Translations under genes and position numbers: made by a program | Shown here: positions 23,837 through 60,926 of the stretch, one piece after another | Numbering within the stretch: the stretch's first letter is position 1 | Layout of the letters: each line of letters begins with the position of its first letter | Assembly: GCA_002688415.1 (NCBI GenBank) | Contig: NZCX01000030.1 | Span: 1,782 to 65,781, forward strand | Reading direction: 5' to 3' | From: Candidatus Pacearchaeota archaeon | GTDB taxonomy: Archaea; Nanobdellota; Nanobdellia; Pacearchaeales; GW2011-AR1 | Length of the DNA stretch: 64,000 nucleotides | The notes under the pieces: model-generated | The model's input: the letters and a program-made list of their open reading frames with translations, nothing else | Database searches by the model: none | What the model was told of the DNA's origin: nothing

Positions 23837-24640
23837 ATGATAGTCAAAGAAGAATTCCTAAGTAGATTAAGGAAGATCTTTGACCTGAACTTATATGAGG
23901 TGAAGGTCTGGACAGCACTTTTGTCGAGGGGAACTTCAACAGCTGGCGAGCTTTCTAGTATCTCTGATGTTCCGAGGTCAAGGACTTATGATATTCTAGA
24001 ATCTCTTGAAAAGAAGGGATTTATTGTAATGAAGCTAGGAAAGCCAATCAAGTTTGTTGCCCTTAAACCAGAGGAAGTCATTGAGAGAGTAAAAAAGAAT
24101 TTGGTCGTCGCAGCAAAGAATAAATCGCAAAGACTTGAGAAGTTAAAGGGTGATGAGGTACTAGAGGAGCTAAACACTATTTTCACCGACGGTATAAAAT
24201 ATGTTGAGCATACAGATCTTTCTGGAGCATTGAAAGGTAGGCAAAATATTTACAATCATTTAGACATGTTAGTTCGTGAAGCCCAAAGCACAATTGTTCT
24301 AGTAACAACAGAAGAGGGTCTTAGCAGAAAACTAGAAGTCTTACTTCCAAGTCTAGAGAAGGCCAAGAAGAGAGGGGTGAAGATAAGGGTTGCTGCACCT
24401 GTAACTGCTGCGAATAAAAGTATAGCCAAAGAATTTTCTAAGGTTGCAGAAATAAAGGCGGTAGACGGTCTGAAGGCAAGATTCTTAATAATAGACTCTG
24501 AACAAATTATGTTTATGCTTCTAAATGACGATGAGGTTCATCCAACATACGACCTAGGGGTTTGGATTAACACGGAATTTTTCGCTAAGTCATTAGAGCA
24601 ATTATTTGACATAGCCTGGGATGGAATGAAAAAAGCTTAA
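23837..24640 (+). CDS. TrmB-family transcriptional regulator
   Basis: N-terminal wHTH LYEVKVWTALLSRGTSTAGELSSISDVPRSRTYDILESLEKKGFI, typical of the TrmB family. 267 aa with a C-terminal effector-like domain. TTTAAATA at 23808-23815 starts 29 nt before the ATG. Confidence 0.8.
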   Translation: MIVKEEFLSRLRKIFDLNLYEVKVWTALLSRGTSTAGELSSISDVPRSRTYDILESLEKKGFIVMKLGKPIKFVALKPEEVIERVKKNLVVAAKNKSQRLEKLKGDEVLEELNTIFTDGIKYVEHTDLSGALKGRQNIYNHLDMLVREAQSTIVLVTTEEGLSRKLEVLLPSLEKAKKRGVKIRVAAPVTAANKSIAKEFSKVAEIKAVDGLKARFLIIDSEQIMFMLLNDDEVHPTYDLGVWINTEFFAKSLEQLFDIAWDGMKKA

Positions 24641-30288: not shown

Positions 30289-30843
30289 ATGATGATTGAA
30301 TTGGTGCGTATTCATGCACATCTTTGTGGTGATGGTTTTATGTTTTTTGGAGAATCTTCAGAAAGGGATCGCAAACACTCTGCAACGGTAGGATACTCAA
30401 ATAATAACTACTGCCTTATAGAAAAATTTAGAGATGATTTTAATGCTGTTTTCAAAGTTCAGATGAAGTTAAGAAAGAATAGAAAAGAAGTAACAGTCAG
30501 GAGTATAAGGATTTATAAGGAGCTTCTGAAATTGTTCGGAGAGCTATCTTCTTTTAAGTGGAGAATCCCGATTGAAATAAAGAATTTAGATACACACTCA
30601 AAGATGGAATGGTTAAAGTCATTTTTTGAGGATGAAGCATATCACGAGAAAAAATATAATAGGTTAAAAACTAAGTCAATGAATCTTGGTGGGCTAAAGG
30701 ATATTAAGGAGATTCTAGATTCATTAGAGATTAATTCGGTAATTACGGGACCAAATTGTGACAAGAGCTACTATATCACAATTCCAAGATTTGATAATAT
30801 CGATCTTTTTAAGGATTTCAAGAAACAACCTGCCAGAAAGTAG
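30289..30843 (+). CDS. Free-standing LAGLIDADG-type homing endonuclease-like protein (184 aa)
   Basis: Two dodecapeptide-like motifs: VRIHAHLCGDGFM and MEWLKSFFEDEAY. TTTAAATA at 30260-30267 starts 29 nt before the ATG. Confidence 0.6.
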   Translation: MMIELVRIHAHLCGDGFMFFGESSERDRKHSATVGYSNNNYCLIEKFRDDFNAVFKVQMKLRKNRKEVTVRSIRIYKELLKLFGELSSFKWRIPIEIKNLDTHSKMEWLKSFFEDEAYHEKKYNRLKTKSMNLGGLKDIKEILDSLEINSVITGPNCDKSYYITIPRFDNIDLFKDFKKQPARK

Positions 30844-43634: not shown

Positions 43635-44675
43635 ATGTCTATGGGGGTAGAGTTATTGGACCGACGAGTAGCGGAGTGTGTTGGTCTGTGGTTGGCAGAG
43701 GGAGATAATAAAACTCGTATGGAAATTACGTTCACTAACAATTGTTGGCCACTTATAGACCACTTCTTTAAGACTATCAAGAAGATCTTTAATATAGAAA
43801 ATTTCAGGTTTAGAATTTATACCTATACTCCTAATGGCTCAAAAGTGCAGATTCCGATTAAAGGAATTAGGAAAAGGTATTATTTACACAAGAGAGCCAC
43901 AAAACCATATTTTATACTTAGGTTGGCCTCTGTTGAGATTGTTAAGGAATGGAAGAAAATCGTAAGAGATACCCTTGCTAATAAGGATTTTTCACCCTAT
44001 GTTTTAAGAGGATTCTTCGCAGGTGAAGGGAATATACATTCAGGAGCACATAATAATCGAGTTTTAAGAATTGCACAGGGAATTAGGAAAAAGTATATTG
44101 AAGATCTTCTAAACCAAATAGGAATTACAAAATACTCTTTTTATGCTCCTAAAAGATATTACCTGATTTGGAATAAGAAAAACTGGGACATCTTTGCTAA
44201 ATTGAAAATTGCAGACCTACATCCAGACAAAAAAGAGAGATTTTGGAGATTATATAGCTCATTCAAGGAAGAACATTACTCTCCGAATTATCTTATAGAA
44301 GAAGTTTATAAGAATCTAAATTCACCAAAAACCACAAGAGAATTAGCAAAAATTTACAAGAGATCTTTTGCTAGGCTTCAAGATGTTGTAATTCTTTTGA
44401 AAAAACAGGGAAGAATTTCCAATTTTCAGATTGGTAGCGTAAGTTATTGGACAAAAGACGAAAATGAGTTAATCATTTCTAAGATAAAGAAGAAATATCT
44501 TGAATTTTCTAAGTCTCCAAGATTAACATTTGAGTTTTCAAAAAAGTTTAAAGTTGATTGGCAGTCCTCTAACAGAAGACTTAAAGAGCTAGAAAAATTA
44601 GAATTAGTTAGGAGGAGAGAAGATAAAAAATGGATAAAGACGCAAGCAAAGAAAAAAATAACTGTAATTGGATGA
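43635..44675 (+). CDS. LAGLIDADG-type endonuclease-like protein with C-terminal wHTH-like region (346 aa)
   Basis: Motifs AECVGLWLAEGDN and YVLRGFFAGEGNI. C-terminal ...RRLKELEKLELVRRREDKKW looks wHTH-like. The likely true start is ATG 43641 by TATA spacing. The stop overlaps the rnhB start (ATGA). Confidence 0.65.
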   Translation: MSMGVELLDRRVAECVGLWLAEGDNKTRMEITFTNNCWPLIDHFFKTIKKIFNIENFRFRIYTYTPNGSKVQIPIKGIRKRYYLHKRATKPYFILRLASVEIVKEWKKIVRDTLANKDFSPYVLRGFFAGEGNIHSGAHNNRVLRIAQGIRKKYIEDLLNQIGITKYSFYAPKRYYLIWNKKNWDIFAKLKIADLHPDKKERFWRLYSSFKEEHYSPNYLIEEVYKNLNSPKTTRELAKIYKRSFARLQDVVILLKKQGRISNFQIGSVSYWTKDENELIISKIKKKYLEFSKSPRLTFEFSKKFKVDWQSSNRRLKELEKLELVRRREDKKWIKTQAKKKITVIG

Positions 44676-45328: not shown

Positions 45329-45760
45329 TTAAGCAGCATCATAGTCAGCATTAACTTCATCTGCGATTCTGGCCATATCGGGGTTGTCCCTTTTAATCAC
45401 TCTCCTTATCATGAATTCAGCCAAAATTTCCCCTCCATTTCTTCCAATTGTAGAAGTCTCTCGATCGGGGCATTCTTCAATTTCCCCAGAGTTCTCTAAG
45501 GTGTGTGCTAATAGTTGATAAAAGTTCCCAAATCCATGTTCTTGTTGAGAAATGACCACGGATTCCATAGCAACACAAGGACAGCCTTTTTTAGTACAAT
45601 GTGGCTCATACGATCTTTGCGCCCCACAAGAATCCACCACAAGCCTATTCCCTGTTTCAAAAAACCCACAGTCGATGTCTCTAACCGCTTGCAAAACTTC
45701 TTCCCTATCCCTATCTGAAGGAATAAGCATTAGGTAGTCACAAGAGGGTACTTTTTCCAT
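45329..45760 (-). CDS. Hypothetical Cys-rich protein (143 aa)
   Basis: Start moved to Met29 of the track ORF because TTTTTATA (plus 45789-45782) starts 29 nt before ATG 45760. Seven Cys including CTKKGCPC. No family recognised. Confidence 0.5.
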   Translation of the reverse strand: MEKVPSCDYLMLIPSDRDREEVLQAVRDIDCGFFETGNRLVVDSCGAQRSYEPHCTKKGCPCVAMESVVISQQEHGFGNFYQLLAHTLENSGEIEECPDRETSTIGRNGGEILAEFMIRRVIKRDNPDMARIADEVNADYDAA

Positions 45761-45880
45761 AAAATAAAAAGTTGTACAGGCTATAAAAACATTATTATTC
45801 TCAACTATATACCAAACAAACCCCAAACACCCATATCCCACCACGATAATAAATATAAAGAAACTATTACAATATTTATA

Positions 45881-46438
45881 ATGAGAGAATATAAGTGGAG
45901 CTTCAAATCAAATAAGCAGGAGAATAGGGTGAGAATGTGGGAAGCTAATAATTTGGATCTAGGAATTAATCAAAGAAATGAAGAAGGCACAAGGGGAAAT
46001 TATTATTCTGATGTTTCTGATTTAACAATTCTTTCAGGGATTTTAAGATATTGTCTTGATGAGGGTGTAGACTTAAAGAGTTATCTCTCCAAAAGTAAAA
46101 GTTTTAGGAGATTATTGAAAAAGGCGAGTATCCCTAAAGATATGAGCATGAGGCCGGTGTTCTACTCGCACTCAGCCCAAGATTTCGATAGAGGATTGGA
46201 ATTTAATGTTGGAGTTGAGAACAAGAACGGATCGCTCCATCTCAAAGGCATTCGTCCAAATGAAAAAGGAATACTTCTCCCTTCTGCCCAAGTCCCAAGA
46301 TTGTTGCATGGGATGGTTCATGTTAGAAATTATATAGGAGTTATAGGGGCCTTCAACAGATATTGCCATTTAATTAACACTTTTTTAGAAGATCCTGTTA
46401 ATGGAATACCCGGATTGAAAAATTTCGGAAGAGAATGA
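45881..46438 (+). CDS. Hypothetical protein
   Basis: 185-aa ORF. AATATAAA at 45852-45859 starts 29 nt before the ATG. No motif recognised. Confidence 0.55.
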   Translation: MREYKWSFKSNKQENRVRMWEANNLDLGINQRNEEGTRGNYYSDVSDLTILSGILRYCLDEGVDLKSYLSKSKSFRRLLKKASIPKDMSMRPVFYSHSAQDFDRGLEFNVGVENKNGSLHLKGIRPNEKGILLPSAQVPRLLHGMVHVRNYIGVIGAFNRYCHLINTFLEDPVNGIPGLKNFGRE

Positions 46439-46479: not shown

Positions 46480-49347
46480 ATGAGTACCCATATCAAAAAG
46501 TTGGTGATGCACGGCTTCAAGTCTTTTGCAAGAAAAACAGAGATCCCATTTGAAGATTCTATGAACGTAATTGTTGGGCCAAACGGATCGGGAAAATCTA
46601 ACATTACCGACGCTCTTTGCTTCGTTTTAGGAAGAATAAGCATTAAATCAATCAGAGCGGCAAAGGCAGCAAACCTACTTTTCTCTGGAAACAAAACCTA
46701 CAAAGGAGCCCAAGAAGCCTCTGTAGAATTAATCTTTGACAACAAAGGAAAATCATTCACATTGGACACGCCAGAGGTATCAATAAAAAGAATTGTAAGG
46801 AAAAACGGTTCTTCAGTATACAAAATCAACAATGAAACCAAAACAAGGCAAGAATTATTAGAGCTTTTAGCTCAAGCGGGAATAGATCCCCATGGTTTTA
46901 ACATTGTTCTACAGGGAGAGATCCAATCCTTAGTTAAAGCAACAGCGGAGGAAAGAAGAAGAGTTCTAGAAGATGTAGCAGGGATCTCAATTTATGAAAC
47001 CAGAAAACACAAAGCACTAAGAGAGCTAGAAAAAACAGATGAAAAACTAAAGGAAGTGGCAGCTGTTCTAAGAGAAAGGAATTCTTACATGAAAAACCTA
47101 GAAAAAGAAAAACAGGAAGCATTATTATTCCAAAAACTAGATGAAACAATAAAGAGATCTAGGAAAACAATCTTAGCCTTAGGAAAAGCCGATAAAGAGA
47201 AAGACTTATGGGGAATAGACAAACTAATAGAAGAGGCCAACGTAGAAGTTAACAAGCTAAAAGATGAAATATCTAAGAAGAAAATAGGAGTAGAAGAACT
47301 AGAGGCGAAAATCAATAGTATAAATAAGAAAATCCAGGACTCAACGAGCAACGAAAAAGAGGACCTACATAACGAAATCAGTGAATTAAGAGCAGAATTA
47401 GCAGGCTTAGAGGTTAGAAAAGAAAACTTTGAACGAAGAGTAGATCAAAACAAACACAAAAATCTTGAGTTGGGTAAAAAACAAGGAGAACTAGAAGAAG
47501 AAATAAGTAAAATTCAAACAAAAACACCCGAGATAAAAGAAACCCAAAAGACTCAAAAAGATTTACAAGAAAAGTTCGATAAGTTAGAAGAAAGAAAAAG
47601 AAAATTCTACTTAATAAAATCAGAAATAGCACAATTAGAAAGCGTTAGAGAACAAGCAAACAAATTCTTAATTGAAAGCAAGAAAGAAATAGCTCTTATT
47701 GAAAGAAATGTAGAAACTCTCTTTAATGAAATCAAATTCGCCAAATCTCTTGATGCAGCTCAGAGGCTAAAGGCTGAAACAAAAGAGCAAGTTGGAAAAT
47801 TAAGAAGAGAAATGGAACATTTAGAAAGAGTCTCCTTAGAAAAAGAGCGAAGAAATGCTGTTCTTGAAGATGAAATCAAGCGAGAAGAGTCTTTGGTTGG
47901 ATCTATTTTAGATTTAAAGAATTGCCCTACTTGTAAACAAGTTGTTGGAGAAGATTATAAACAAACTATTCAAGGCGATTCGGGTGGGAAGATAAAGAAA
48001 GCTAAGAAAGAAAAAGAAGAAAACGAATCTATTAAGAACAAAACGAATGCAAGAATTGAAAACATCACACAAGAGCTTTTCCAATTGAATGAAACCTTAT
48101 CTGAAGTTGAAATTGATTCTATGAAAGTTAAGAATGCTGAAGAAAAGAAGATCCAGATTAAGAAAATAAGTGAAGAGCAGGCAGTATCAAGAGAAAACCT
48201 TACAAGTATAAACGCTAAACTTTCCAAATTGAACCAAGAATTTGAAGGCCTGAAAGGAATTGAAGAAGAATATGATGAAGTAAGAGTAAGAATACAAGAA
48301 CTTTCCTTTAAGGATCTTGATATAGATTCTGAAATTGGCTTAAAGCAAAAAGAGATTAATCGTTTGAACATTGAAAAGAAATCCTTAGTTAGAGATAGTG
48401 AAGAATCTCAAATTGAATTGAAGAAGGTTGTTGTCTTAATAGAAGAAAAGAAAGGAACACTTGAGAGAAAAGAGAAAAAAGAAGCTGAATTATATGAGAA
48501 GTTTGAGAAATTCTTTGATGAAAAAACAGAGTTAGGGGATAAACAGAAAGCTTTAGAGACAGACGTCATTGGTTTTGAGCACAACTTAAGGAGCTATGAA
48601 GAGAAAATAAATGAGAATAAGATAAAGAAGGCGCAGTTAAACGCACATATAGAATCTATTGAAGCTGAAATGAGAGTTTATTCTGATGTTGAAGTTTACA
48701 AGCTGAATGAATCGGAGGTTAAAGAAAGATTACAAAAAGCAGAGTTTAGGAAGTCGAGATTAGGAAGTGTTAATATGAGAGCAGTTGAGGTTTTTGACAA
48801 AGTTCAGGAACAAGTTCGATTGATCAAAGAAAAAGTTGAAGTTATTGAAGGCGAGAAAGAGAAGATTGAGAAGATCATTGCAGAAATTGATAAGAAGAAA
48901 AAGAAAGCTTTTATGACGACTTTAGAAGCTGTAAATACATATTTCACTCGTAACTTTTCACAATTATCTAGAAAAGGACAAATTAGTTTAGAACTTGAAG
49001 ATAAAAAAAATCCTTTTGAAGGAGGGTTGAATATTTTGGTTAGAGTTAATAGAGGAAAGTATTTCGACATCACAAGTTTAAGCGGAGGAGAAAAGACAAT
49101 GGTTGCACTATCTCTGATCTTCGCTATCCAAGAATACAAACCTTATTGTTTCTATATCTTCGATGAAATCGACGCTGCTCTGGACAAACACAATTCTGAA
49201 TTGTTGGCTGCCTTGATTAAGAAATACATGAAGACAGGACAATACATAATAGTTACACACAACGATACTTTGATTTCTGAGGCTAGTAATCTGTATGGGG
49301 TTTCAATGCAAGAGAATATTTCCAAGATTATTAGCTTGAAGGTGTAG
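46480..49347 (+). CDS. smc: SMC-type chromosome segregation ATPase, hinge-less, with central CxxC
   Basis: N-head MHGFKSF...GPNGSGKSNITDALCFVLG..S.K..RA....LLFSG. C-head LSGGEKTMVALSLIFAIQEYKPYCFYIFDEIDAALD...YIIVTHN. About 630 aa of uninterrupted coiled-coil-like sequence in between. 955 aa total. Confidence 0.9.
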   Translation: MSTHIKKLVMHGFKSFARKTEIPFEDSMNVIVGPNGSGKSNITDALCFVLGRISIKSIRAAKAANLLFSGNKTYKGAQEASVELIFDNKGKSFTLDTPEVSIKRIVRKNGSSVYKINNETKTRQELLELLAQAGIDPHGFNIVLQGEIQSLVKATAEERRRVLEDVAGISIYETRKHKALRELEKTDEKLKEVAAVLRERNSYMKNLEKEKQEALLFQKLDETIKRSRKTILALGKADKEKDLWGIDKLIEEANVEVNKLKDEISKKKIGVEELEAKINSINKKIQDSTSNEKEDLHNEISELRAELAGLEVRKENFERRVDQNKHKNLELGKKQGELEEEISKIQTKTPEIKETQKTQKDLQEKFDKLEERKRKFYLIKSEIAQLESVREQANKFLIESKKEIALIERNVETLFNEIKFAKSLDAAQRLKAETKEQVGKLRREMEHLERVSLEKERRNAVLEDEIKREESLVGSILDLKNCPTCKQVVGEDYKQTIQGDSGGKIKKAKKEKEENESIKNKTNARIENITQELFQLNETLSEVEIDSMKVKNAEEKKIQIKKISEEQAVSRENLTSINAKLSKLNQEFEGLKGIEEEYDEVRVRIQELSFKDLDIDSEIGLKQKEINRLNIEKKSLVRDSEESQIELKKVVVLIEEKKGTLERKEKKEAELYEKFEKFFDEKTELGDKQKALETDVIGFEHNLRSYEEKINENKIKKAQLNAHIESIEAEMRVYSDVEVYKLNESEVKERLQKAEFRKSRLGSVNMRAVEVFDKVQEQVRLIKEKVEVIEGEKEKIEKIIAEIDKKKKKAFMTTLEAVNTYFTRNFSQLSRKGQISLELEDKKNPFEGGLNILVRVNRGKYFDITSLSGGEKTMVALSLIFAIQEYKPYCFYIFDEIDAALDKHNSELLAALIKKYMKTGQYIIVTHNDTLISEASNLYGVSMQENISKIISLKV
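49264..49347 (+). repeat. Direct repeat copy 1: functional smc 3' end (last 27 codons plus stop)
   Basis: 74 of 84 nt identical to 52829-52912. The first 26 nt are identical. Confidence 0.95.
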
Positions 49348-49495
49348 ACGCTTTATCTATTACCTCTATGAGAATCACAAAAAAATCACGAGAATTCCCT
49401 TATCTTAAGGGTAATAATCATCGAGAGTATATAAAGCTTTGGTGCGTTTATCGACGGAGGGATAGATTTTTAAAGTATTTTGGGTTTTTTTAATT

Positions 49496-51244
49496 ATGAC
49501 AAGGAATATTCCAGATTATTCTAATTTTCAGTTCATAAAAGACATATGGCATTTCTTAAAATTTCGTAAAGGCAGATTTCTTTTTTTAACAATAATCCTG
49601 GCATTCGGGGCCTCTGCAGGATTAGTTGGTACAGTATACATTGCAAAAATAGTTGATCTATTTGTTAGTGGAAACGGAGGTTATAGTCTATTCTATAACT
49701 ACCTGGCAATTATAGTGGGCATTAGCGTTGGAGGGGCATTCCTTCAGCAGTATGGAAAACACAGCATGTATTTAATTTCTGCAGACATACAGAAAAACGC
49801 AAAAGTTGAAGCATTCAGGAAGTTGCTCCAGGGAGACTTAATATGGCACGAAGGCGAAAGCACGGGGGCAAAAATGGAAAAAATTGAAAATGGAGTAAAC
49901 AAACTTGGAGGACTTCTTGGACTCTGGAGAAGACGAGCAATTCATATAACTATTCAAATTTTAGGTATTATCGGAGTATTTGCATTTATTGATCTAAAAT
50001 ATGCAGCGATCGCATTAATCTATATGGTTGTTTACCTATTTTTAGAACTTAATTTAAATAAAAAACTAAGTGAAAGTACAAAAAGATTGAGAATAGCGAG
50101 GGAATCCTCTTCGGGGAAAGCATATGAATTCTCATCAAACATTAGTACGATTAAGGCTTTGGGTATGGAAAAAAGTTCAAGTAAGCATATTATGGAGAAA
50201 GAAAATGATGTGCTAAGAATGAAATATCTTCAAAGAAGGGCCATAACTTTCAAGTGGCTATCTATACAACTCGTCGCAAGTTTATTCTTTGGCCTATTCA
50301 TATTTCTAGTTGGGAAGGACATTTTAGCTGGAATTTTAACTGTTGGAATGATTGTTATCTACATTGATTACGTTAGGCGACTTACCAAGGCATTAAATCT
50401 AATCTCTGAAGAAGCAGATAGGCTAATTGAGATCAAATATGGAGTATTTAGAATGATGAAAATATTTAGAATGATTCCAGATATAAATGAAGATGACACA
50501 GGCCCGCTAAGAGAATGGAGAACTATCAAGATTAACAACCTCGGGTTCAGATACAGGGAAGATAAAATCCTGCAGGGATTCAATTTGGGTATAGCAAAGG
50601 GTGAAAAAATTGGAATAGTTGGGATGAGCGGAAGCGGGAAATCCACTTTATTTAAACTTTTATTAAAACTACATCTAGTAAAAGAAGGCGAGATTCTATT
50701 CGATAAGAAAAATATTGAAGACATAAGTAGAGACTCTCTCCTAAAGAAGATCTCTGTGGTTCCACAAGAAACCGAATTATTCAACTTGAGCCTTAGAGAG
50801 AATATAACTCTCTCCAAGAGTGGGAGATTTAACTTAGAAAAATACAAAAAAGCATTGGAGATAAGCCAAGTCTCAAAATTTATTCCAAAACTAAAAAATA
50901 AAGACCTTACTTTTGTAGGGGAGAAAGGTATACGCTTATCCGGTGGGGAGAAACAAAGAATTGGAATAGCAAGGGCAATATACAAAGATAGTGATATAAT
51001 TATCTTAGATGAATCAACTTCGAACCTGGACTACGCCAATGAACGTAGAATATTGGATGCCATTGATAAAAAACTCAAAAACAAGACATTAATCCTGGCC
51101 GCACATAGATTAACAACCCTGGAATCCATGGACAGAATTCTTTTTATTGAAGGGGGAAAAATTGTCGAGGAAGGAAGCTATAAGGAATTAATAGAAAAAA
51201 GAGGAAAGTTCTACAAACTATGGAAATCTCAGAAGAGAAGATAA
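49496..51244 (+). CDS. ABC exporter, fused permease-ATPase (second copy of this type in the window)
   Basis: TM-rich N-terminal half. Walker A GMSGSGKST, signature LSGGEKQR, Walker B IIILDESTSNLD. TTTTTAAA at 49467-49474 starts 29 nt before the ATG. Confidence 0.9.
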   Translation: MTRNIPDYSNFQFIKDIWHFLKFRKGRFLFLTIILAFGASAGLVGTVYIAKIVDLFVSGNGGYSLFYNYLAIIVGISVGGAFLQQYGKHSMYLISADIQKNAKVEAFRKLLQGDLIWHEGESTGAKMEKIENGVNKLGGLLGLWRRRAIHITIQILGIIGVFAFIDLKYAAIALIYMVVYLFLELNLNKKLSESTKRLRIARESSSGKAYEFSSNISTIKALGMEKSSSKHIMEKENDVLRMKYLQRRAITFKWLSIQLVASLFFGLFIFLVGKDILAGILTVGMIVIYIDYVRRLTKALNLISEEADRLIEIKYGVFRMMKIFRMIPDINEDDTGPLREWRTIKINNLGFRYREDKILQGFNLGIAKGEKIGIVGMSGSGKSTLFKLLLKLHLVKEGEILFDKKNIEDISRDSLLKKISVVPQETELFNLSLRENITLSKSGRFNLEKYKKALEISQVSKFIPKLKNKDLTFVGEKGIRLSGGEKQRIGIARAIYKDSDIIILDESTSNLDYANERRILDAIDKKLKNKTLILAAHRLTTLESMDRILFIEGGKIVEEGSYKELIEKRGKFYKLWKSQKRR

Positions 51245-51454
51245 TGAGAATAGAGTGTTTGAAGGTATGAATTTTACAGAACCAAAAGATTTTTAAGCAT
51301 GTTTCAATTATTCTTTTTATGACAGGTAAATGTCTCTGGCAATAGGTTTTCAGACTCTTTCTTAGCCTGTGCTTTATTATGTAATCCAAAGATTGACTTT
51401 TTTGAGAGTTCTTTTCTTTGGAAAACTAAATTTAAGCGAAAGCGGGAGGAAAAT

Positions 51455-52130
51455 ATGATGGAAAATCAATCCTATAATTTAGGGAAAACTTGTCGGTGGG
51501 GGGATACTGGAAGTTAAGAATTCAAAAGAATTTTTTGATACAAACCCTTCAGCGTTAGATCAGGTTTCTTCTACAATTTGCGAAGGGTTTGGCCGCCAAT
51601 TAGAAGCAGAGGATATTTATGAGCACATTACAACCCCAGAGAAGCTTCTTTTATTCCAAAGTCAAGGAATTATAAAAGGCATGGGGAGTTATACGACAAG
51701 AGTTTTAGAGAATGGATTAAGATATCTTGTGGTTGACGGAGTGGTTTTTGCTCCCGAACTTCAGAGGAAGGGACTTTTTTCAAAAATAACCAATGCGGCC
51801 CTTACAGGTTCAGAGGGTTTTGTTTGTCTTAGAACTCAGAACCCACGAATGTTCAGAGCATTAGAAAATCTTTGTTCTATAACCGTTGGCGCAAGGGAAA
51901 ATCTTCGAGGGATATTTGAAAAAGTTAGAGAAGATCTCGTAGACTATTTTGGTTGTGAAACAGACCCACTTGGAGTTATCAAAGGTTACTATGGTGGGCT
52001 CTTTTATGGAGAAAGGCCAGAGCATAAAGAAATAGATCCTTTGTTCTCTGAATTAGGAGTAGATCTTGACAAAGGTGATGCGCTTTTGGCAATCGGAGAT
52101 ATCAGGGTCTTTAACGGAATTGTAGCATAA
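51455..52130 (+). pseudogene. GNAT-family N-acetyltransferase interrupted by a +1 frameshift near its 5' end (or assembly error)
   Basis: GGGAGGA at 51444-51450 precedes ATGATG at 51455. That frame stops at 51515-51517. The frame of the 51681-52130 track ORF is open back to 51483 and reads GKLVGGGILEVKNSKEFF... The two frames join at an A4 (51485-51488) or G6 (51498-51503) run. GNAT motif A is PELQRKGLFSKI. Confidence 0.6.
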
Positions 52131-52136
52131 AGTAAA

Positions 52137-52808
52137 ATGGAAGAACCAAATATTGTTTATTGTTTGCATGGAAATGAGAAGTGTGGGCTAGAAGTTGCTA
52201 AAAGCCTGCCTTCCATTCCATCTTTTTTAGGAAATAAAAAGGCTTTCGAAGAGAATAAAAGATTTATTGAAGCGGACCTTAATAGAGTTTTTCCAGGAAA
52301 GAAAGATGGAAATTACGAAGAGAGAGCAGCCTATCAGTTATTAAAAAAGCTAAAAGATAGAAAATATGTTATAGATATCCATTCTTCTTCCAATAAATGT
52401 CCTTTGTTCGGAATTATTACTTCTCCAAATAGGGAAAAGATTGAATTTGCAAAAAAACTTGGTCTAAAGAGGTTGGTGATTATGCCTCCCTCCTTTGCCA
52501 AAAAACGAGCTTTGATAGATTTTGTTGAAATAGGAATCAGCCTTGAAATCGGACCGCATAACAGACAAGAAAATGTAACAGAAATCTTGGGGAAAATACA
52601 GAATTTTGTCGAAGGGCAAACGTGTTTAGATGAAATGGAAATCTTTGAAGTTTTTGATGTGATTCGTAGATCTGAAACGGACTTAAATTTAGAGAATTTT
52701 GATTTTGTTGAGAGAGATTCGGTGAAAGATTATGGCTTTACTGCTGTGTTGGTTAATGAAGATTCTTATGGAGACATATTATGCCTGGCGGCTAGAAGGA
52801 TTAGTTAA
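52137..52808 (+). CDS. Succinylglutamate desuccinylase / aspartoacylase (AstE-AspA) family zinc hydrolase
   Basis: CLHGNEKCG, DLNRVFPG, E..A and IDIHSS match the family's ligand pattern. Confidence 0.7.
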   Translation: MEEPNIVYCLHGNEKCGLEVAKSLPSIPSFLGNKKAFEENKRFIEADLNRVFPGKKDGNYEERAAYQLLKKLKDRKYVIDIHSSSNKCPLFGIITSPNREKIEFAKKLGLKRLVIMPPSFAKKRALIDFVEIGISLEIGPHNRQENVTEILGKIQNFVEGQTCLDEMEIFEVFDVIRRSETDLNLENFDFVERDSVKDYGFTAVLVNEDSYGDILCLAARRIS

Positions 52809-52828
52809 CGAATTATTATGATTGGGAA

Positions 52829-52912
52829 GATACTTTGATTTCTGAGGCTAGTAACTTGTATGGGGTTTCAATGCAAGAAAACATTAGCAAGATAATTAGC
52901 TTGAAGGTCTAA
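52829..52912 (+). repeat. Direct repeat copy 2: orphan smc 3'-end fragment (27 codons plus stop, no upstream ORF)
   Basis: Encodes the identical peptide DTLISEASNLYGVSMQENISKIISLKV*. It has 10 nt changes relative to copy 1, all synonymous. The in-frame upstream sequence hits a stop at 52802-52804. Confidence 0.95.
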
Positions 52913-53196
52913 AACCAAATCTTTTCTTTTGTCTCCACAAACAAAAACCTTTTTTCTCTGATGGTATGGCTAACAACTAATCCTAATCCAAAAGAAACTA
53001 ATCCTAATGAAAATATAAAAATACTTACAACAAAACAACCAAGACCAACGCAACTATGATGCAATCTTGTATGTTTAATTTTTAACCCGATTTCTTTTTT
53101 CTGTATTTTACTCCTAAATCTCTCAAGAAATGCTAAGCTCAAATCTCCAAAAATACCTAGCACAAAAAAGACAGCAAAAACATAGTACCAATACAT
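52909..53196 (-). CDS. Small membrane protein (95 aa)
   Basis: Two clear hydrophobic helices; a basic loop. Confidence 0.5.
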   Translation of the reverse strand: MYWYYVFAVFFVLGIFGDLSLAFLERFRSKIQKKEIGLKIKHTRLHHSCVGLGCFVVSIFIFSLGLVSFGLGLVVSHTIREKRFLFVETKEKIWF

Positions 53197-53510: not shown

Positions 53511-53520
53511 AATATTCACA

Positions 53521-55014
53521 ATGGAAAAGTTCAAAGAACTAGGACTGAATCAAGGACTCCTTGATGCTATCAAAGCAAAAGGAATCACAGATCCTACCGA
53601 AATACAAGAGAAAGCAATCCCTCTAGCCTTAGCAGGAGAAGATATTGTAGGAGGATCGGCAACAGGTTCAGGAAAAACTTTAGCATTCTCAGCTCCAATA
53701 ATCCAAAACCTAAAACCAGGAAACTTCCCAAAAGCATTAATTCTAACACCAACAAGAGAACTAGCCGAACAAGTAGCAGATGCATTCAAAGACTTCTCAA
53801 AAGAACACAAATTAAGAGTTACAAAAGTATACGGCGGAGTTTCAATAAACCCTCAAATAAAATCTCTTGAAAAATGTGATGTTGTTGTTGGAACACCTGG
53901 AAGAATATTAGACCACCTAAACAGAGGGACATTAAACCTTAGAGAAATAGAATTCATAGTTTTAGACGAAGCAGATAGAATGTTCGATATGGGTTTCCAT
54001 CATGACGTAGAAAAGATAATCAAAAATTGTCCAGACAAAAGACAAACTTTACTATTCTCCGCAACAATAACAAGAGAAATCGGACACCTAATTGACAAAT
54101 ACACAAAAAACCCAAAAACAATCGCAGTAAAAAGTTATATTGACGCATCAAAACTAAAACAAATCTACCACGATGTAGATAACAGACAAAAATTCTCTTT
54201 ACTAGTTCACTTACTAAGAAATGAAAGTCAAAAACTAGTGATGGTTTTCTGTAACACAAGAATGATCGTTGATTTTGTTGAAAAAAACTTAAGAAAATGT
54301 GGAATTCAAGCAAGAGCAATCCATGGTGGTTTAAGCCAAAACCAAAGAACAAGAGTTTTAGGAGATTTTCATGGAGAAAAAGTTGACGTTTTAGTTTGTA
54401 CAGATGTTGCAGCAAGAGGTTTGGACATAAAAGGAATAAGTCATGTTTACAATTACGACCTACCTTCTGTAAGTGAAGATTACGTTCATAGAATTGGAAG
54501 AACAGCAAGAGCTGGAGATGACGGTATAGCAATAAGTTTACTTTCAGATAGAGATTATGATAATTTTAGAAGAGTTCAAAGAAATGAGAACCTAAAGATT
54601 GAAAGATTAGATCTCCCAGAATTCGTACCAATCAGAGTAGAAATGATCAGAAGAGGAAATGGACGTGATGGAAGAGGCGGAAACAGCTCAAGAGGCAGAG
54701 GCCGTGGAAGAGAAGGAAGCCGTGGTGGAAGTTTTAGCAGAGGACGATCAAGTTCTGGTGGCTCAAGAGGTGGTAGTTTTAGTCGTGGTAGATCAAGCTC
54801 TGGACCAAGGAGAAGTTCAGGTGGAAGAGACTCAGGTCCTGGAAGACGAGGAAGAATGAATGCTAGTAGAGACGGAGATTCAAGAGGCGGTTCACGTGGT
54901 GGTCGATCAGGTGGATTTTCAAGAGGACGATCAAGTTCTGGTGGCTCAAGAGGCGGCCCTAGAAGAAACAACGGCGGAAGACCAAGATCAAGTTCTGGAA
55001 GCTTTAGAAGATAA
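53521..55014 (+). CDS. DEAD-box ATP-dependent RNA helicase with RGG/SR-rich C-terminal tail
   Basis: Q-motif region, motif I GSATGSGKT, Ia PTRELA, II VLDEADRM, III SAT, VI HRIGRTARAG. The last roughly 120 aa are R/G/S repeats. Confidence 0.95.
   Translation: MEKFKELGLNQGLLDAIKAKGITDPTEIQEKAIPLALAGEDIVGGSATGSGKTLAFSAPIIQNLKPGNFPKALILTPTRELAEQVADAFKDFSKEHKLRVTKVYGGVSINPQIKSLEKCDVVVGTPGRILDHLNRGTLNLREIEFIVLDEADRMFDMGFHHDVEKIIKNCPDKRQTLLFSATITREIGHLIDKYTKNPKTIAVKSYIDASKLKQIYHDVDNRQKFSLLVHLLRNESQKLVMVFCNTRMIVDFVEKNLRKCGIQARAIHGGLSQNQRTRVLGDFHGEKVDVLVCTDVAARGLDIKGISHVYNYDLPSVSEDYVHRIGRTARAGDDGIAISLLSDRDYDNFRRVQRNENLKIERLDLPEFVPIRVEMIRRGNGRDGRGGNSSRGRGRGREGSRGGSFSRGRSSSGGSRGGSFSRGRSSSGPRRSSGGRDSGPGRRGRMNASRDGDSRGGSRGGRSGGFSRGRSSSGGSRGGPRRNNGGRPRSSSGSFRR
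54739..54953 (+). repeat. Exact 32-bp direct repeat inside the helicase tail
   Basis: AGAGGACGATCAAGTTCTGGTGGCTCAAGAGG occurs at 54739-54770 and again at 54922-54953. A diverged third unit lies between them. It encodes RGRSSSGGSRG. Confidence 0.9.
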
Positions 55015-55068
55015 AACTATACACCAGAGAACACATTTATTTTTAAAGGTTAAGCCATTTCAACATGA

Positions 55069-55512
55069 ATGACAGATTTAATCCATGGAAAAGATGACTA
55101 TAGGATAAGAAACCCTAACAAAGAGCATGAGAATTTCTATCCATGTATGTATGTTAGAGATGAAATAATAAGGGACGCAGGAGAGTGGCATTTATTTGCA
55201 GGAATTTGGAGCAAGGGATGTCTTCTAAGGGTAAGGGTCCCTGTCGAAGGATTTAAGGATTTGGGGCGAGACATTTTGGAATCTGAGAGGTTGGTAGCAA
55301 AAGTTGTTACATTCACCAAAAGTGAGAGATCTGGAAATGGAGAAGAGTTAGTCAATACATTTATTGAAGAGGCATATAATTTGATAAGAAATTCGGGCTC
55401 ACGAACAAGTACAATTAGAGAAGATGCTGAAAACCTTGCGGGCATCTATGGCATTCAAGACGAAAAAGCTAGACTAAGAATAATTATAGACCATGCCAAA
55501 CATACTGATTAA
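55069..55512 (+). CDS. Hypothetical protein
   Basis: 147 aa. TTTTTAAA at 55040-55047 starts 29 nt before the ATG. No motif recognised. Confidence 0.55.
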   Translation: MTDLIHGKDDYRIRNPNKEHENFYPCMYVRDEIIRDAGEWHLFAGIWSKGCLLRVRVPVEGFKDLGRDILESERLVAKVVTFTKSERSGNGEELVNTFIEEAYNLIRNSGSRTSTIREDAENLAGIYGIQDEKARLRIIIDHAKHTD

Positions 55513-55535
55513 CAAGAGAGACGGTATTTATTTTT

Positions 55536-55859
55536 ATGAAAAAACCTCTAACAAGAAGCCAAGTTGAAAGTCTTCTTGAAAAAGACATTGTCTGTGATAC
55601 CCTAAGAAGATTAGGTGAAAAAGCTAAAAGGTGGACTGGAGGGGGAGCATTAAACCACCGTGTAGTCGCAGTAGGATTTTTAGCAGAAACAGGTGCAAGA
55701 AATATCTCGGAGGGATTTACCCCGATCAAGTCAAAGGCTACATTTAGTGAAATGAAAGCAGTAGATAGAGAAATGTACAAAGAAACATTAAATCTGATTT
55801 ACCCGATAATTAGGGCTGGAATTTACTCAAAACAAGCAGAAGTTCAGATCTATTTCTAA
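55536..55859 (+). CDS. Hypothetical protein
   Basis: 107 aa; probably co-transcribed with 55069-55512. No motif recognised. Confidence 0.45.
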   Translation: MKKPLTRSQVESLLEKDIVCDTLRRLGEKAKRWTGGGALNHRVVAVGFLAETGARNISEGFTPIKSKATFSEMKAVDREMYKETLNLIYPIIRAGIYSKQAEVQIYF

Positions 55860-56614
55860 AGCCCTAAAGAAAATAACCTGGTTCCTAAAAGAAAGAACGG
55901 AAGGACAATCTGAAAGAATAGCCAGATAATCAAAAGCCAAACCCATATGCTCATACCCTGCCTTCTAGTTTTGGCGGGCTTCCCATCAGACCATCCACTT
56001 TCAAGAGGATCTTCAACCCTAGGGTTCTTGTGCATATAAAGTTTATAGAATATAATTGTCAGCATGCTTAATGTTCCATCAATGATTGCCATGGCCCCTA
56101 AAAGTCTAAAGAAGAAGGCTCCAAGTTGGGTAAAAGCATTTTCCATATAGATTATAGGCATCAACATAACAACAACTATTAACATGAAAAGATAATTAGC
56201 AAAAACAACACCATCAATATAGTTCTCCTTGTTAAGAGCCTTTGACAAAATATCAGCATGAAGGGCAGCAAATCCAAAAACAAAGAAAGTCCTATATGTC
56301 TCCCAAACAGTTTCACTAGAGAAAATATCCCAGATGCCAAAGATAGAGGTAAAGAAACTTACCACAATCAGAATAAATACAACATTAATGAAGAAAGACA
56401 GCCTGTCAAAAGTTCCTTTCCTTTCGTCGTCCCATATAAAACAGAGAGCGACAAGGGAATGAAGAATAACAATAAAGAGTGTCCATAAAACCCTAGCGGC
56501 GGTCTCTGTAAAGTCTCCAACCAAAACAGAAACAACAGCAACAACTGCAGAAACAACTAAAGCCAAAATCATATTATATATAAAGAACTTTTTGAATTCA
56601 GCAAAGTCTATCAT
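55856..56614 (-). CDS. Polytopic membrane protein, unknown function
   Basis: 252 aa with about 7 hydrophobic segments. CTTATAAA (plus 56643-56636) starts 29 nt before the ATG. Confidence 0.65.
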   Translation of the reverse strand: MIDFAEFKKFFIYNMILALVVSAVVAVVSVLVGDFTETAARVLWTLFIVILHSLVALCFIWDDERKGTFDRLSFFINVVFILIVVSFFTSIFGIWDIFSSETVWETYRTFFVFGFAALHADILSKALNKENYIDGVVFANYLFMLIVVVMLMPIIYMENAFTQLGAFFFRLLGAMAIIDGTLSMLTIIFYKLYMHKNPRVEDPLESGWSDGKPAKTRRQGMSIWVWLLIIWLFFQIVLPFFLLGTRLFSLGL

Positions 56615-56644
56615 ATTATACTTTTAACTTAGATATTTATAAGG

Positions 56645-57319
56645 TTATGCTTTATTAAAACCGCGATATCTGTTTAAGCTACTCAAAAATCCAGAAGGCT
56701 CCATTCGCGTTTCTTTTTTAGATGCCCCATCCTTTCCGAATACAATGTCTGATGAAGCCCAAAATGGAAGCACACCCATACAAACTCCTGCACGTACAAC
56801 TTCTGCCCCAATATATGCAACATCCCTTACGGCTCTTTTAGAATTACCCTTTATATTATGAGGATAATTCTCATTGGCCCCTATTGTCACAAGAGAGATA
56901 ACTGGAAGAGCACGATTATAGATGGAGTTTCTATGATCCCTCTCCATCGGGATAAGGGTTTCTACGCCGTGGGTGAACTGAGAGGATTTTCTTTTTGCTA
57001 GGCCGGATTGTCTTGGTAATTTCGAAATTGCATTCTTAAATGTGTCTTCCCGGTCACGACCATTCCGAAGTTGACCAATGAAGTCGCCTACAGCATGAGA
57101 ATAGTCAAATCCTTCCATATGTCTATAAAATCTGCCTCCTTTGAAGAAGTGTTCTTCGTGGAGGTAGGCTAATGCAATGCGTGGCTTAGTTTTCCAGTGA
57201 AGAATATTTCTTGTTTCTAATGTAAGCTCACGATCTAATTCCTCAAGACCTTCATCAATCCTTTTATCAAACATATGTTGAACCTGCATCCTAAATCGCT
57301 CTTGAGGAGTATGTCCCAT
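56645..57319 (-). CDS. Hypothetical protein
   Basis: 224 aa. CTTAAAAG (plus 57348-57341) starts 29 nt before the ATG. No motif recognised. Confidence 0.55.
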   Translation of the reverse strand: MGHTPQERFRMQVQHMFDKRIDEGLEELDRELTLETRNILHWKTKPRIALAYLHEEHFFKGGRFYRHMEGFDYSHAVGDFIGQLRNGRDREDTFKNAISKLPRQSGLAKRKSSQFTHGVETLIPMERDHRNSIYNRALPVISLVTIGANENYPHNIKGNSKRAVRDVAYIGAEVVRAGVCMGVLPFWASSDIVFGKDGASKKETRMEPSGFLSSLNRYRGFNKA

Positions 57320-57379
57320 TTATCTTTGAATGATTTCCAGCTTTTAAGAATTATTATACTAGAATATACAATGTTTTAC

Positions 57380-59936: not shown

Positions 59937-60926
59937 ATGAAGGTTTTTTTAAGGTATAAAAGAGGTCTAAACAATATGGATAAAGAAGATTCTGTGAAAA
60001 ATATCAAGGCTCTAAAGAGCCTTGGGGCCGTGCGTGACGAATTTGACATTATAGAACTATCCAAAAAGGTAAAGAGACAGGGAGATGTGTTGATTCTTTC
60101 AAAAGAGTTAAAGATAAAGCCTAGAATCCTTAAATCTGCTGTATATGAAGGAAGAATATTGTCCTTGTTGCCTGACATATCAAAAAGTAAAGCTGGAATT
60201 CTGGCTTCATTAAGAACAGATAGAGATGTGAGGAAATTTGCAAAAATCCATGATCTCGGGAGCATTTCAGCAAGAGAATTAATAAAAAAAGTAAGACTGT
60301 GGAATAAAAATCTTGAAGAAAATCCATTCAATCTGTTAACCAGAAAGGAACACGAGGTTATATTGGGTACTCTAATGGGAGATGCGAGCATCAGGAAGAG
60401 AGAAAGAAATTCTTGTTTGCGCTTTTCTCATTCGATAAAGCAAAAGGAGTACTGTAAGATCAAGAAAGAAATCCTTGAGAGTTTCAATCTGTCAGAGTTT
60501 AGGGAATATAAACGACTAAAAAAAAATGGGATCTTACATACTCTGGATTTTGCCACTAAGACCCATTCAGTTTTTAATTATTATAGGAATCTATTCTATT
60601 CAGAAGGAAAGAAGGTAATCACACAAGAAATTCTAAATCAACTCACTTCAAGAAGTTTGGCATTCTGGATTTGTGATGACGGTAGTTACTGCAAAAGTGG
60701 GAAATATATTATCCTTTGTACAAATTCTTTCTCATTTGAAGAGCATCAATTAATCCAAAGATTTTTCCTCAAGAAGTTTGGATTAAATCCAACTATTGGT
60801 TTTAGAGACAATAAGTATCACTACTTAAGGTTTAGTAAATCAGACACAGAAAAGCTTGTTAATATAGTAAAACCTTTTATACCCCCTTTCATGAATTATA
60901 AAATTGGAGTAACAAAAAATGTCTAA
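59937..60926 (+). CDS. LAGLIDADG-type homing endonuclease-like protein (329 aa) with N-terminal extension
   Basis: Motifs EVILGTLMGDASI and LAFWICDDGSY, about 100 aa apart (double-motif type). The start is uncertain (59937 or in-frame ATG 59976). The 3' end overlaps the gyrB start by 8 nt. Confidence 0.7.
   Translation: MKVFLRYKRGLNNMDKEDSVKNIKALKSLGAVRDEFDIIELSKKVKRQGDVLILSKELKIKPRILKSAVYEGRILSLLPDISKSKAGILASLRTDRDVRKFAKIHDLGSISARELIKKVRLWNKNLEENPFNLLTRKEHEVILGTLMGDASIRKRERNSCLRFSHSIKQKEYCKIKKEILESFNLSEFREYKRLKKNGILHTLDFATKTHSVFNYYRNLFYSEGKKVITQEILNQLTSRSLAFWICDDGSYCKSGKYIILCTNSFSFEEHQLIQRFFLKKFGLNPTIGFRDNKYHYLRFSKSDTEKLVNIVKPFIPPFMNYKIGVTKNV

What the first reader, a model, noticed from the sequence alone, without database searches (positions are those of the whole stretch)
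49264..52912. 3.5-kb insertion at the smc stop codon, bracketed by two synonymous-only versions of the smc 3' end
The last 27 codons plus stop of smc (49264-49347) recur at 52829-52912. 74 of 84 nt are identical and the first 26 nt are identical. All 10 differences are silent: AAT/AAC, CTG/TTG, GAG/GAA, AAT/AAC, TCC/AGC (Ser to Ser through three changes), ATT/ATA, GTG/GTC, and stop TAG/TAA. Both copies encode DTLISEASNLYGVSMQENISKIISLKV*. Homology starts abruptly, since the upstream flanks are unrelated, and the second copy has no ORF feeding into it. Purely synonymous divergence means both copies evolved as working gene ends in different lineages. This is the signature of an integrative element whose attachment site carries a surrogate 3' end for the target gene. 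It leaves the displaced native end at the far junction. The bracketed segment carries an ABC exporter, a frameshifted GNAT and an AstE/AspA-family hydrolase. It carries no integrase, so the element is either decayed or mobilised in trans.
Basis: partly seen in the sequence, partly recalled or inferred. Interest (0 to 1): 0.75.

Follow-up and report, generated by a model that had tools for sequence, protein, structure and literature searches.

The report
Integrase-less gene island inside smc's end
A marine Pacearchaeota (DPANN archaeon) genome carries a 3.5-kb, three-gene island inserted in the last 84 bases of its chromosome-segregation gene smc; the island brings its own replacement gene end, and similar integrase-free insertions recur at the smc end in about one in six related lineages.

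Summary
The window is a TARA Oceans Pacearchaeota contig. The right junction is present in three further contigs.

The four closest relatives (SMC 79-86% identical) have smc followed directly by the DEAD-box helicase, which is an empty site. So this is a real insertion with a foreign but functional smc end.

No integrase was found in the island or among the window ORFs of at least about 110 aa that were scanned. No smc-end fragment was found in IMG/VR.

The event is not unique. About 14 of 85 Pacearchaeota lineages have a second smc end downstream. The separating insert is a 31-127-nt hairpin-rich spacer or a small cassette (ParE toxin-antitoxin, single ORFs), and none carries an integrase. 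Among about 670 other gene ends, no repeat reached the stop codon.

Best reading: a non-autonomous cassette that enters and leaves by recombination between the two gene-end copies. Whether host homologous recombination or a trans-acting recombinase does this is unresolved.

The "frameshifted GNAT" is not decay. The same +1 frame break is conserved in four diverged lineages.

The parts
46480..49347 (+). smc (955 aa), intact. Its last 84 nt are copy 1 of the repeat.
   Evidence: Pfam SMC_N at 2.3e-52. 79-86% identical orthologues of the same length.
49264..49347 (+). Copy 1 of the smc end (attL-like). It is in frame and supplies the working C-terminus and a TAG stop.
49264..49289 (+). 26-nt stretch identical in both copies (the second is at 52829-52854). 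Candidate crossover region.
   Evidence: Hypergeometric p=0.04 for no changed codon among the first 8.
49348..49426 (+). 79-nt junction-proximal leader of the island. It holds imperfect inverted copies of parts of copy 1 (49361-49378 and 49404-49424) and the palindrome CCCTTATCTTAAGGG.
   Evidence: Inverted repeat I5, 21 nt at 76%. Read directly from the sequence. The fold is not significant, z=-1.18.
49427..49495 (+). Upstream (promoter/5' UTR) region that travels with the ABC gene.
   Evidence: 77% identical to the stretch just upstream of the 67%-identical ABC homologue in L013/L014.
49496..51244 (+). ABC exporter (fused permease and ATPase, 582 aa), island cargo.
   Evidence: Pfam ABC_membrane and ABC_tran. 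Best non-self homologue is 67% identical and lies in unrelated contexts. Only 29% identical to the host paralogue at 5333-7126.
51455..52130 (+). GNAT-like gene with a conserved +1 frame break. The Shine-Dalgarno (ribosome-binding) motif and ATG open a short frame at 51455-51517. The main frame is open over 51483-52130. The proposed shift comes after AAA 51485-51487, with reading resuming at CTT 51489.
   Evidence: Homologues pass the Acetyltransf_1 cut-off. Uninterrupted distant homologues exist.
52137..52808 (+). Short AstE/AspA-family hydrolase (223 aa), full length, island cargo. It forms a conserved gene pair with the GNAT-like gene.
   Evidence: Pfam AstE_AspA_cat at 1.5e-14. Alignment to homologues runs end to end. 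The pair is conserved in L095, L097 and L108.
52809..52828 (+). 20-nt right edge of the island, between the AstE stop and copy 2.
52829..52912 (+). Copy 2 of the smc end (attR-like). It is an orphan with no ORF feeding in, has a TAA stop, and is contiguous with the native downstream flank.
52909..53196 (-). Convergent 95-aa ORF that overlaps the orphan's stop by 4 nt. Relatives also have a small convergent ORF right after smc.
   Evidence: No Pfam match.
53521..55014 (+). DEAD-box helicase, the conserved right neighbour of smc at empty sites.
   Evidence: Pfam. 87% identical to the L006 gene, which lies 212 nt after the L006 smc.

Best explanation
The 3,565-nt unit (copy 1 plus 49348-52828) is a horizontally acquired, non-autonomous cassette.

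How it got in: a DNA molecule carrying an 84-nt smc 3' end from a related Pacearchaeota lineage underwent a reciprocal crossover with the host smc inside that shared gene end, probably within the 26 identical bases. This left smc with a replacement end and pushed the native end 3.5 kb downstream as an orphan.

What it carries: it is a composite of a short junction leader, an ABC exporter with its own upstream region, and a GNAT-like/AstE-like gene pair.

Wider pattern: it belongs to a recurrent class of insertions at the smc 3' end in Pacearchaeota. In every case the insert lies between two copies of the gene end and carries no recombinase.

My preferred mechanism (inferred): gain, spread and precise loss run on recombination between the gene-end copies, supplied by the host. 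The smc body acts as the left homology arm. The orphan copy acts as the right arm, which pairs with the native end of a naive genome. Copy-to-copy recombination removes the insert cleanly.

Shown: the insertion, the foreign functional end, the lack of an integrase, and the recurrence and specificity for smc.
Inferred: the enzyme, and the direction and frequency of transfer.
For: 1. Empty site in all four closest relatives.
2. Silent-only divergence: 0 of 200,000 random simulations reproduce it.
3. Both junctions are present in several contigs.
4. Cargo genes have best non-self homologues of only 59-67% identity, in other contexts, whereas SMC has 86% relatives.
5. No recombinase in the island or among the scanned window ORFs.
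6. A second smc end lies downstream in about 14 of 85 lineages. The reverse-complement control gave 0 hits.
7. Among 743 ORF ends, only smc gave repeats that reach the stop codon. That is 4 smc hits. The other 2 hits stop short of the stop.
8. Carrier lineages are scattered over the SMC tree. Close relatives at 85-89% identity lack the insert, and homologous spacers occur in non-sister lineages.
9. Inserts range from 31 nt to 3.5 kb. They include a ParE toxin-antitoxin pair, and none has an integrase.
10. Orphan copies range from perfect (L016: 11 nt differences, 0 aa changes) to decayed (L054, L061, L105). This is expected for displaced ends of different ages.
Against: - No excised or circular form and no island-free variant of this same population was seen.
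- No donor lineage was found.
- A 42-84-nt arm is short for homologous recombination across about 10% divergence.
- The duplication starts at discrete positions (-97, -84, -42 in nine lineages, about -22). Carriers of the -42 class also share a helix between the start of copy 1 and the bases right after the stop (duplex energy median -12.1 against -5.1 kcal/mol, p=1.8e-5). Plain homologous recombination does not predict this. It hints at a site- or structure-specific factor.
- Sliding-window identity of the window's smc against L006 shows no 3'-end discontinuity (no imported tract), but no close enough reference exists.
Confidence: 0.55

Rival explanations
1. It is a classical site-specific integrative element. 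It has either lost its integrase (a cis-mobilizable element, CIME) or is an att-only hitchhiker moved by an smc-specific tyrosine or serine recombinase encoded elsewhere (virus, plasmid or ICE). The 26-nt identity is the att core.
For: - The layout is exactly attL-island-attR, with the identity block at the 5' edge of the repeat and a surrogate end after it.
- Discrete start positions recur across lineages. This resembles the sublocation preferences of integrases in tRNA genes (my own knowledge).
- Integration into the 3'-distal parts of archaeal protein genes is documented: 14 of 68 thaumarchaeal elements (PMC6563490).
- CIMEs are a defined category (PMC5704250).
- A 67%-identical ABC homologue lies beside T4SS-like and tyrosine-recombinase-like genes in L011/L012.
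Against: - No integrase in any of the 14 inserts or among the scanned window ORFs.
- No smc-end fragment in IMG/VR.
- Inserts of 31-34 nt, homologous in non-sister lineages, are too small to have moved as double-stranded circles.
- Independent loss of the integrase in every instance is not parsimonious.
Confidence: 0.28
2. It is a one-off acquisition with no ongoing mobility. Either homology-facilitated illegitimate recombination or aberrant excision captured the smc end plus downstream genes in a donor, and the piece was then inserted once into this lineage.
For: No other copy of this island and no close homologue of its cargo exists in 5.8 billion proteins. The island is fixed, at 99.96-100% identity, in the other contigs that cover it.
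Against: The same type of event recurs at smc in 13 other lineages, and at no other gene end whose repeat reaches the stop. In a linear one-ended event, the illegitimate join would not be expected to coincide with the start of donor homology.
Confidence: 0.12
3. It is an in-situ tandem duplication of the smc end followed by drift, or an assembly artefact.
For: None beyond the existence of a direct repeat.
Against: The differences are silent only and include a TCC/AGC serine switch. Several contigs agree. The empty site in relatives shows that 3.5 kb of foreign genes lie between the copies.
Confidence: 0.02

Closest known systems
Genomic islands and integrated elements that target the 3' (or 5') end of a protein-coding gene and restore it. 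Examples: thaumarchaeal integrated mobile elements (PMC6563490), dusA-specific islands (PMC4482086), and ICESt1/3 in fda (my own knowledge).
   Same: There is a direct repeat of the target-gene end at both junctions. The in-frame copy keeps the gene intact and the displaced end lies at the far junction. Relatives have an empty site, and the cargo consists of accessory genes.
   Different: No integrase is present in this or in any of the 13 other smc-end insertions. The repeat is long (84 nt) and diverged at silent sites, rather than a short identical core. The target (smc) was not found in my literature searches.
CIME, cis-mobilizable elements (definition in PMC5704250).
   Same: attL-like and attR-like repeats are retained, while integration and transfer genes are absent.
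   Different: A CIME is defined as a decayed ICE or IME and depends on a cognate ICE that integrates at the same site. No such autonomous partner was found for smc.
Microcin H47 genomic island of E. coli (PMC5426353).
   Same: It is a small island flanked by direct repeats and encodes no site-specific recombinase. Its excision depends on host functions.
   Different: It is bacterial, its repeats are not a gene end, and it has no surrogate coding sequence. Its mechanism is also unknown.
Transposons and casposons with target-site duplications. Casposons insert into the 3' end of ef-2 (PMC6563490).
   Same: They insert at the 3' end of a conserved gene and are flanked by direct repeats.
   Different: Target-site duplications are identical when formed and have a fixed short length. 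Here the repeats are 16-97 nt, differ by silent changes only, and there are no terminal inverted repeats and no transposase.

Membership tests
Integrase-mediated integrative element (island, provirus, ICE or IME) | Direct repeats derived from the target at both junctions | tested here: met
   84-nt repeat, 75 of 84 identical.
Integrase-mediated integrative element (island, provirus, ICE or IME) | Empty target site in related genomes | tested here: met
   smc is followed by the DEAD helicase in the P0002-P0005 lineages.
Integrase-mediated integrative element (island, provirus, ICE or IME) | Element-encoded tyrosine or serine recombinase | tested here: not met
   No recombinase domain passing a Pfam cut-off in the island or in the roughly 50 window ORFs of at least about 110 aa that were scanned. 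The only recombinase-family hit is a sub-threshold Resolvase match in the TrmB-family ORF 23837-24640.
Integrase-mediated integrative element (island, provirus, ICE or IME) | Excision to a circular form, with attP and attB junctions | not testable with these tools
   No read data. IMG/VR holds no orphan smc end.
CIME (cis-mobilizable element) | Keeps attL and attR but lacks integration and transfer genes | tested here: met
CIME (cis-mobilizable element) | A cognate autonomous element uses the same att site | tested here: not met
   None of the 14 inserts at smc ends carries an integrase. Nothing was found in viral contigs. The search is limited to about 85 genomes and IMG/VR.
Transposon, casposon or MITE with target-site duplication | Short duplication of fixed length, identical when made; terminal inverted repeats; transposase | tested here: not met
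   The repeats are 16-97 nt across lineages and diverged at silent sites only. No terminal inverted repeats at the island ends.
Diversity-generating retroelement (variable repeat and template repeat at a gene's 3' end) | Reverse transcriptase nearby and adenine-specific mismatches that change amino acids | tested here: not met
   No reverse transcriptase. The differences are T/C, C/T, G/A, T/C, T/A, C/G, T/A, G/C and G/A, all silent.
Xer/dif-dependent integrative element (IMEX) | A dif-like 11-6-11 site duplicated at both ends | not tested
   No archaeal dif model was at hand. The varying start of the duplication (-97 to -17) argues against a single dif.
Archaeal bulge-helix-bulge intron (considered for the small spacers only) | Two 3-nt bulges separated by a 4-bp helix at the two boundaries | tested here: inconclusive
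   A palindromic UGCA lies at both boundaries in the -42 class, but no exon-exon helix was found. Checked by hand on the sequences and folds.

The most novel reading that the evidence does not exclude
Pacearchaeota may harbour an undescribed class of integrase-free insertion modules specific for the smc 3' end.

The smallest members are 31-127-nt hairpin-rich spacers whose first bases pair with the start of the duplicated gene end. Larger members carry cargo: a toxin-antitoxin pair, single ORFs, or the three-gene island seen here.

They would propagate either as 'self-flanked' homology cassettes or through a structure- or guide-based targeting step that nobody has characterised.
Probability: 0.3. 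Interest if true: 0.8.

Novelty: new variant of a known kind. Interest (0 to 1): 0.55.

Why it matters
Almost nothing is known about how DPANN archaea, with their tiny host-dependent genomes, gain accessory genes.

This locus shows a concrete route. An exporter and an acyl-transfer/deacylase pair were slotted into the end of an essential chromosome-maintenance gene without breaking it.

The same gene end is reused in about one lineage in six, with no recombinase in sight. That gives a defined and testable hotspot for gene flow in uncultured archaea. It may also point to a recombination or targeting mechanism that works without an element-encoded integrase.

The side finding offers a candidate case of programmed frameshifting in archaea: a +1 frame break conserved in four lineages of a GNAT-like gene.

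Tried and rejected
1. Donor search. The proteins closest to the ABC and AstE genes are only 67% and 59% identical and lie in unrelated contexts. No donor was found.

2. A degenerate DNA pattern for the 27-aa smc end gave 10 hits in JGI metagenomes, all at ordinary full-length smc ends. It gave none in IMG/VR. A looser 13-codon pattern also gave none in IMG/VR.

3. AstE relatives in viral contigs: none.

4. Integrase hunt among the window ORFs: none. There are only weak LAGLIDADG matches, and one sub-threshold Resolvase match in the TrmB-family ORF 23837-24640.

5. Which copy is native: comparison with L006 and L008 is uninformative (70 against 70 and 65 against 63 identities).

6. Mosaic or co-conversion tract in smc: no signal.

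7. Rfam on the spacers: nothing. The spacers do not recur elsewhere in 1.4 Mb of loci.

8. RNAalifold on five long spacers gave no usable consensus.

9. A bulge-helix-bulge intron model for the small spacers fits only half of the motif.

10. DGR, transposon and in-situ duplication models were rejected (see the membership tests).

11. Recent duplication of the host ABC paralogue was rejected: 29% identity.

12. A significant RNA fold at the window's own junctions was not found: z=-1.18 and +0.47.
Full report
**What is there.** Window 49264-49347 is the last 27 codons plus stop of a 955-aa smc. It recurs at 52829-52912. 75 of 84 nt are identical and there are no gaps. All 9 differences are silent, and both copies encode DTLISEASNLYGVSMQENISKIISLKV*. 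The first 26 nt are identical and the flanks on both sides are unrelated. The second copy has an in-frame stop 8 codons upstream and no start codon. This is the outstanding direct repeat of the window. Nine random substitutions never preserved the peptide and stop in 200,000 simulations.

**Source and reality of the junctions.** The window is part of TARA_SAMEA2619974 scaffold_144 (90.9 kb). NCBI names the ABC and AstE proteins as Candidatus Pacearchaeota archaeon CMI41_04280 and CMI41_04290. Four contigs carry this exact SMC with the same neighbours. Three further contigs (L003, L004, L005) contain the AstE-orphan end-95-aa ORF-helicase junction at 99.96-100% identity. An assembly artefact is excluded for practical purposes.

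**It is an insertion.** The four closest SMC relatives (86, 82, 82 and 79% identity) all show FtsZ-DHH-RNase HII-SMC-(small variable, mostly convergent ORF)-DEAD helicase-...-L7Ae-S28e-L24e. They have no ABC, GNAT or AstE genes. The three whose DNA was available also lack a second smc end. At the DNA level, L006 aligns to the window up to 49343 and resumes at 52829-52908 and at 53520 onward. L008 behaves the same way. The segment 49348-52828 is therefore extra.

**Nature of the cargo.**
- The ABC exporter is only 29% identical to the host paralogue at 5333-7126.
- Its best non-self homologues (67%) lie in unrelated Pacearchaeota contexts. One lies beside T4SS-like and tyrosine-recombinase-like genes.
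- About 60 nt just upstream of the ABC gene (49427-49487) is homologous to the region upstream of the L013/L014 homologue. The ABC gene therefore came with its own upstream region.
- The AstE-like protein is full length, and its best non-self homologue is 59% identical.
- In three other lineages it is preceded by the same GNAT-like gene, in core-genome contexts.
- The island is thus a composite of at least two units plus a 79-nt junction leader.

**No recombinase.** Pfam scans of the island and of about 50 window ORFs of at least about 110 aa found no tyrosine or serine recombinase or transposase passing its cut-off. They found only weak LAGLIDADG-type matches, plus one sub-threshold Resolvase match in a TrmB-family ORF. 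IMG/VR contains no smc-end fragment and no AstE relative.

**The event is not unique.** I fetched 80 Pacearchaeota smc loci from GTDB genomes and 10 from JGI metagenomes. I searched downstream of each smc for a second copy of its own end.

Besides the window lineage, these have a second, intact or nearly intact 13-codon end plus stop, 31-127 nt after the first:
- L016: 11 nt differences, 0 aa changes, including two TCN/AGY serine switches.
- L030: 4 differences, 0 aa changes.
- L052: 1 difference, plus a third partial copy.
- L022, L060, L078 and L098: 1-2 aa changes each.

L054, L061 and L105 have decayed copies.

L031, L088 and L059 have 16-34-nt repeats of the very end, including the stop. 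These repeats flank small gene cassettes:
- L031: a 126-aa ORF.
- L088: a ParE-family toxin with an upstream antitoxin-like gene.
- L059: a 326-aa ORF with no Pfam match.

In total that is about 14 of 85 lineages.

**Controls.**
- The same peptide scan on reverse-complemented downstream DNA gave 0 hits.
- Among 743 ORF ends in the same loci, six had an exact repeat of at least 20 nt downstream. Four of these were smc. The other two did not reach the stop codon.

**Distribution.** Carriers are scattered over an SMC tree. Relatives at 85-89% identity lack the duplication. Homologous spacers occur in non-sister lineages: L061 with L030/L078, L052 with L078, and L016 with L098. None of the inserts encodes an integrase.

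**Structure of the small inserts.** In the nine lineages whose duplication starts 42 nt before the end (at ATGCA), the bases right after the smc stop are complementary to the start of copy 1. The helix follows the local codon choice:
- CAUGAU/AUCAUG in L030.
- AUGCAGGA/UCCUGCAU in L016.
- CAAGAAGGUUUG/CAAACAUUCUUG in L022.

RNAduplex energies are -6.8 to -16.8 kcal/mol (median -12.1) in carriers, against a median of -5.1 in 71 other lineages (Mann-Whitney p=1.8e-5). The spacers also carry hairpins with compensatory changes between lineages. They fold better than shuffles: z=-3.8 for L016 and -2.3 for L030. They match no Rfam family and occur nowhere else in the fetched DNA. The window's own junction has only imperfect inverted copies of copy 1 and no significant fold.

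**Mechanism.** The topology is that of a single reciprocal crossover between the host smc and a molecule carrying a diverged smc end. The in-frame copy is continuous with foreign DNA. The orphan is continuous with the native flank. Homology starts abruptly at the same base in both copies. This excludes in-situ duplication. It also makes a linear one-ended illegitimate event unlikely.

The data do not show which enzyme made the crossover. I favour host-supplied recombination between gene-end copies (confidence 0.55) for three reasons:
- Every one of 14 instances lacks a recombinase.
- Inserts as small as 31 nt are shared by non-sister lineages.
- A cassette flanked by the gene body and a second gene end carries its own two homology arms for entering a naive genome, and a built-in route for clean loss.

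Periodic replacement of the orphan by a recipient's working end would also explain why orphans are so often still perfect. I give the trans-acting, smc-specific recombinase (CIME-like) model 0.28. The discrete start positions and the conserved helix are not predicted by plain homologous recombination.

**Relation to known systems.**
- Integration into the 3'-distal part of protein genes with restoration of the gene is well known in bacteria. In archaea, 14 of 68 thaumarchaeal elements do this (PMC6563490). The dusA islands are another example (PMC4482086).
- Integrase-less, repeat-flanked derivatives are called CIMEs (PMC5704250).
- An integrase-less island that excises through unknown host functions is documented in E. 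coli (PMC5426353).
- This case shares the layout. It fails the defining test of an element-encoded recombinase, or of a cognate autonomous partner.
- My literature searches found no report of smc as a target, and no report of this pattern in DPANN.

**The 'frameshifted GNAT'.** The gene upstream of AstE has its conserved N-terminal region in a frame with no ATG, GTG or TTG after the preceding stop. A Shine-Dalgarno (ribosome-binding) motif and an ATG lie 7-15 codons upstream of the putative shift, in the frame that requires a +1 shift. Exactly the same arrangement is present in L095, L097 and L108 (AstE 49-59% identical). The shift always comes just before a CTT codon: GGG AAA A CTT, ATA AAA T CTT, CTG AAA T CTT and AAG ATT C CTT. 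More distant homologues are uninterrupted. One of them starts MVENILK, which resembles the 0-frame peptide MVKNEILK of L097. Homologues pass the GNAT Pfam cut-off. This is a conserved recoding candidate, not decay.

**Verdict.** The locus is an integrase-free island with a surrogate smc end. It is one member of a recurrent, smc-specific class of insertions in Pacearchaeota whose recombination machinery remains unidentified.

Noticed in passing
window 51455-52130; L095 7250-7993; L097 5670-6385; L108 5345-6004: The GNAT-like gene paired with AstE needs a +1 shift between a short Shine-Dalgarno/ATG-initiated frame and the main frame. The shift falls at the same place (just before a CTT codon; AAA-N-CTT in three, ATT-C-CTT in L108) in all four diverged lineages examined. 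Distant homologues are uninterrupted. This is a candidate conserved programmed +1 frameshift in archaea.
   Followed up: partly
L016 12821-13000; L030 4937-5051; L052 5673-5860; L060 2903-3080; L098 7188-7359 (-); L022 4776-4990; L078 5907-6025; L054, L061, L105: A second copy of the last 13 codons plus stop of smc lies 31-127 nt downstream. It is separated from the first by hairpin-rich spacers whose first bases pair with the start of copy 1. Differences are mostly silent, and some copies are decayed.
   Followed up: partly
L088 7403-8015; L031 12262-12766; L059 12839-13927: Small gene cassettes are inserted at the smc stop and flanked by 16-34-nt repeats of the smc end: a ParE toxin with an antitoxin-like gene, a 126-aa ORF, and a 326-aa ORF.
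   Followed up: partly
window 30289-30843, 43635-44675, 59937-60926: Three free-standing LAGLIDADG-like ORFs lie in intergenic positions. The second (between DHH and RNase HII) and the third (between L24e and gyrB) are absent from the closest relatives. This suggests active homing-endonuclease gene traffic.
   Followed up: no
window 45329-46438 and 55015-57338: Further lineage-specific blocks of genes with no Pfam match flank smc and the helicase. They are absent from L006 and carry no flanking repeats.
   Followed up: no
P0117 (SMC homologue, 1486 aa): One Pacearchaeota SMC carries an intein with a LAGLIDADG domain (Pfam PF14528 and PF14890).
   Followed up: no
L011 151-5995 and 12192-16420; L012: The 67%-identical ABC homologue lies between three tandem genes with faint tyrosine-recombinase N-terminal matches, a large helicase, and a TraC/TrbC-like T4SS module. 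This is a candidate conjugative element in Pacearchaeota.
   Followed up: no
window 50954 (inside the ABC gene): Two contigs (L003, L004) both begin exactly at this coordinate and share one SNP at 51210. This may mark an assembly-graph branch, caused either by strain variation or by a repeat with other ABC genes.
   Followed up: no
window 54500-55014: The DEAD-box helicase has a long, GC-rich RGG/SR-type C-terminal tail built from 35-nt repeats (54739-54773, 54922-54956, 54979-55013).
   Followed up: no
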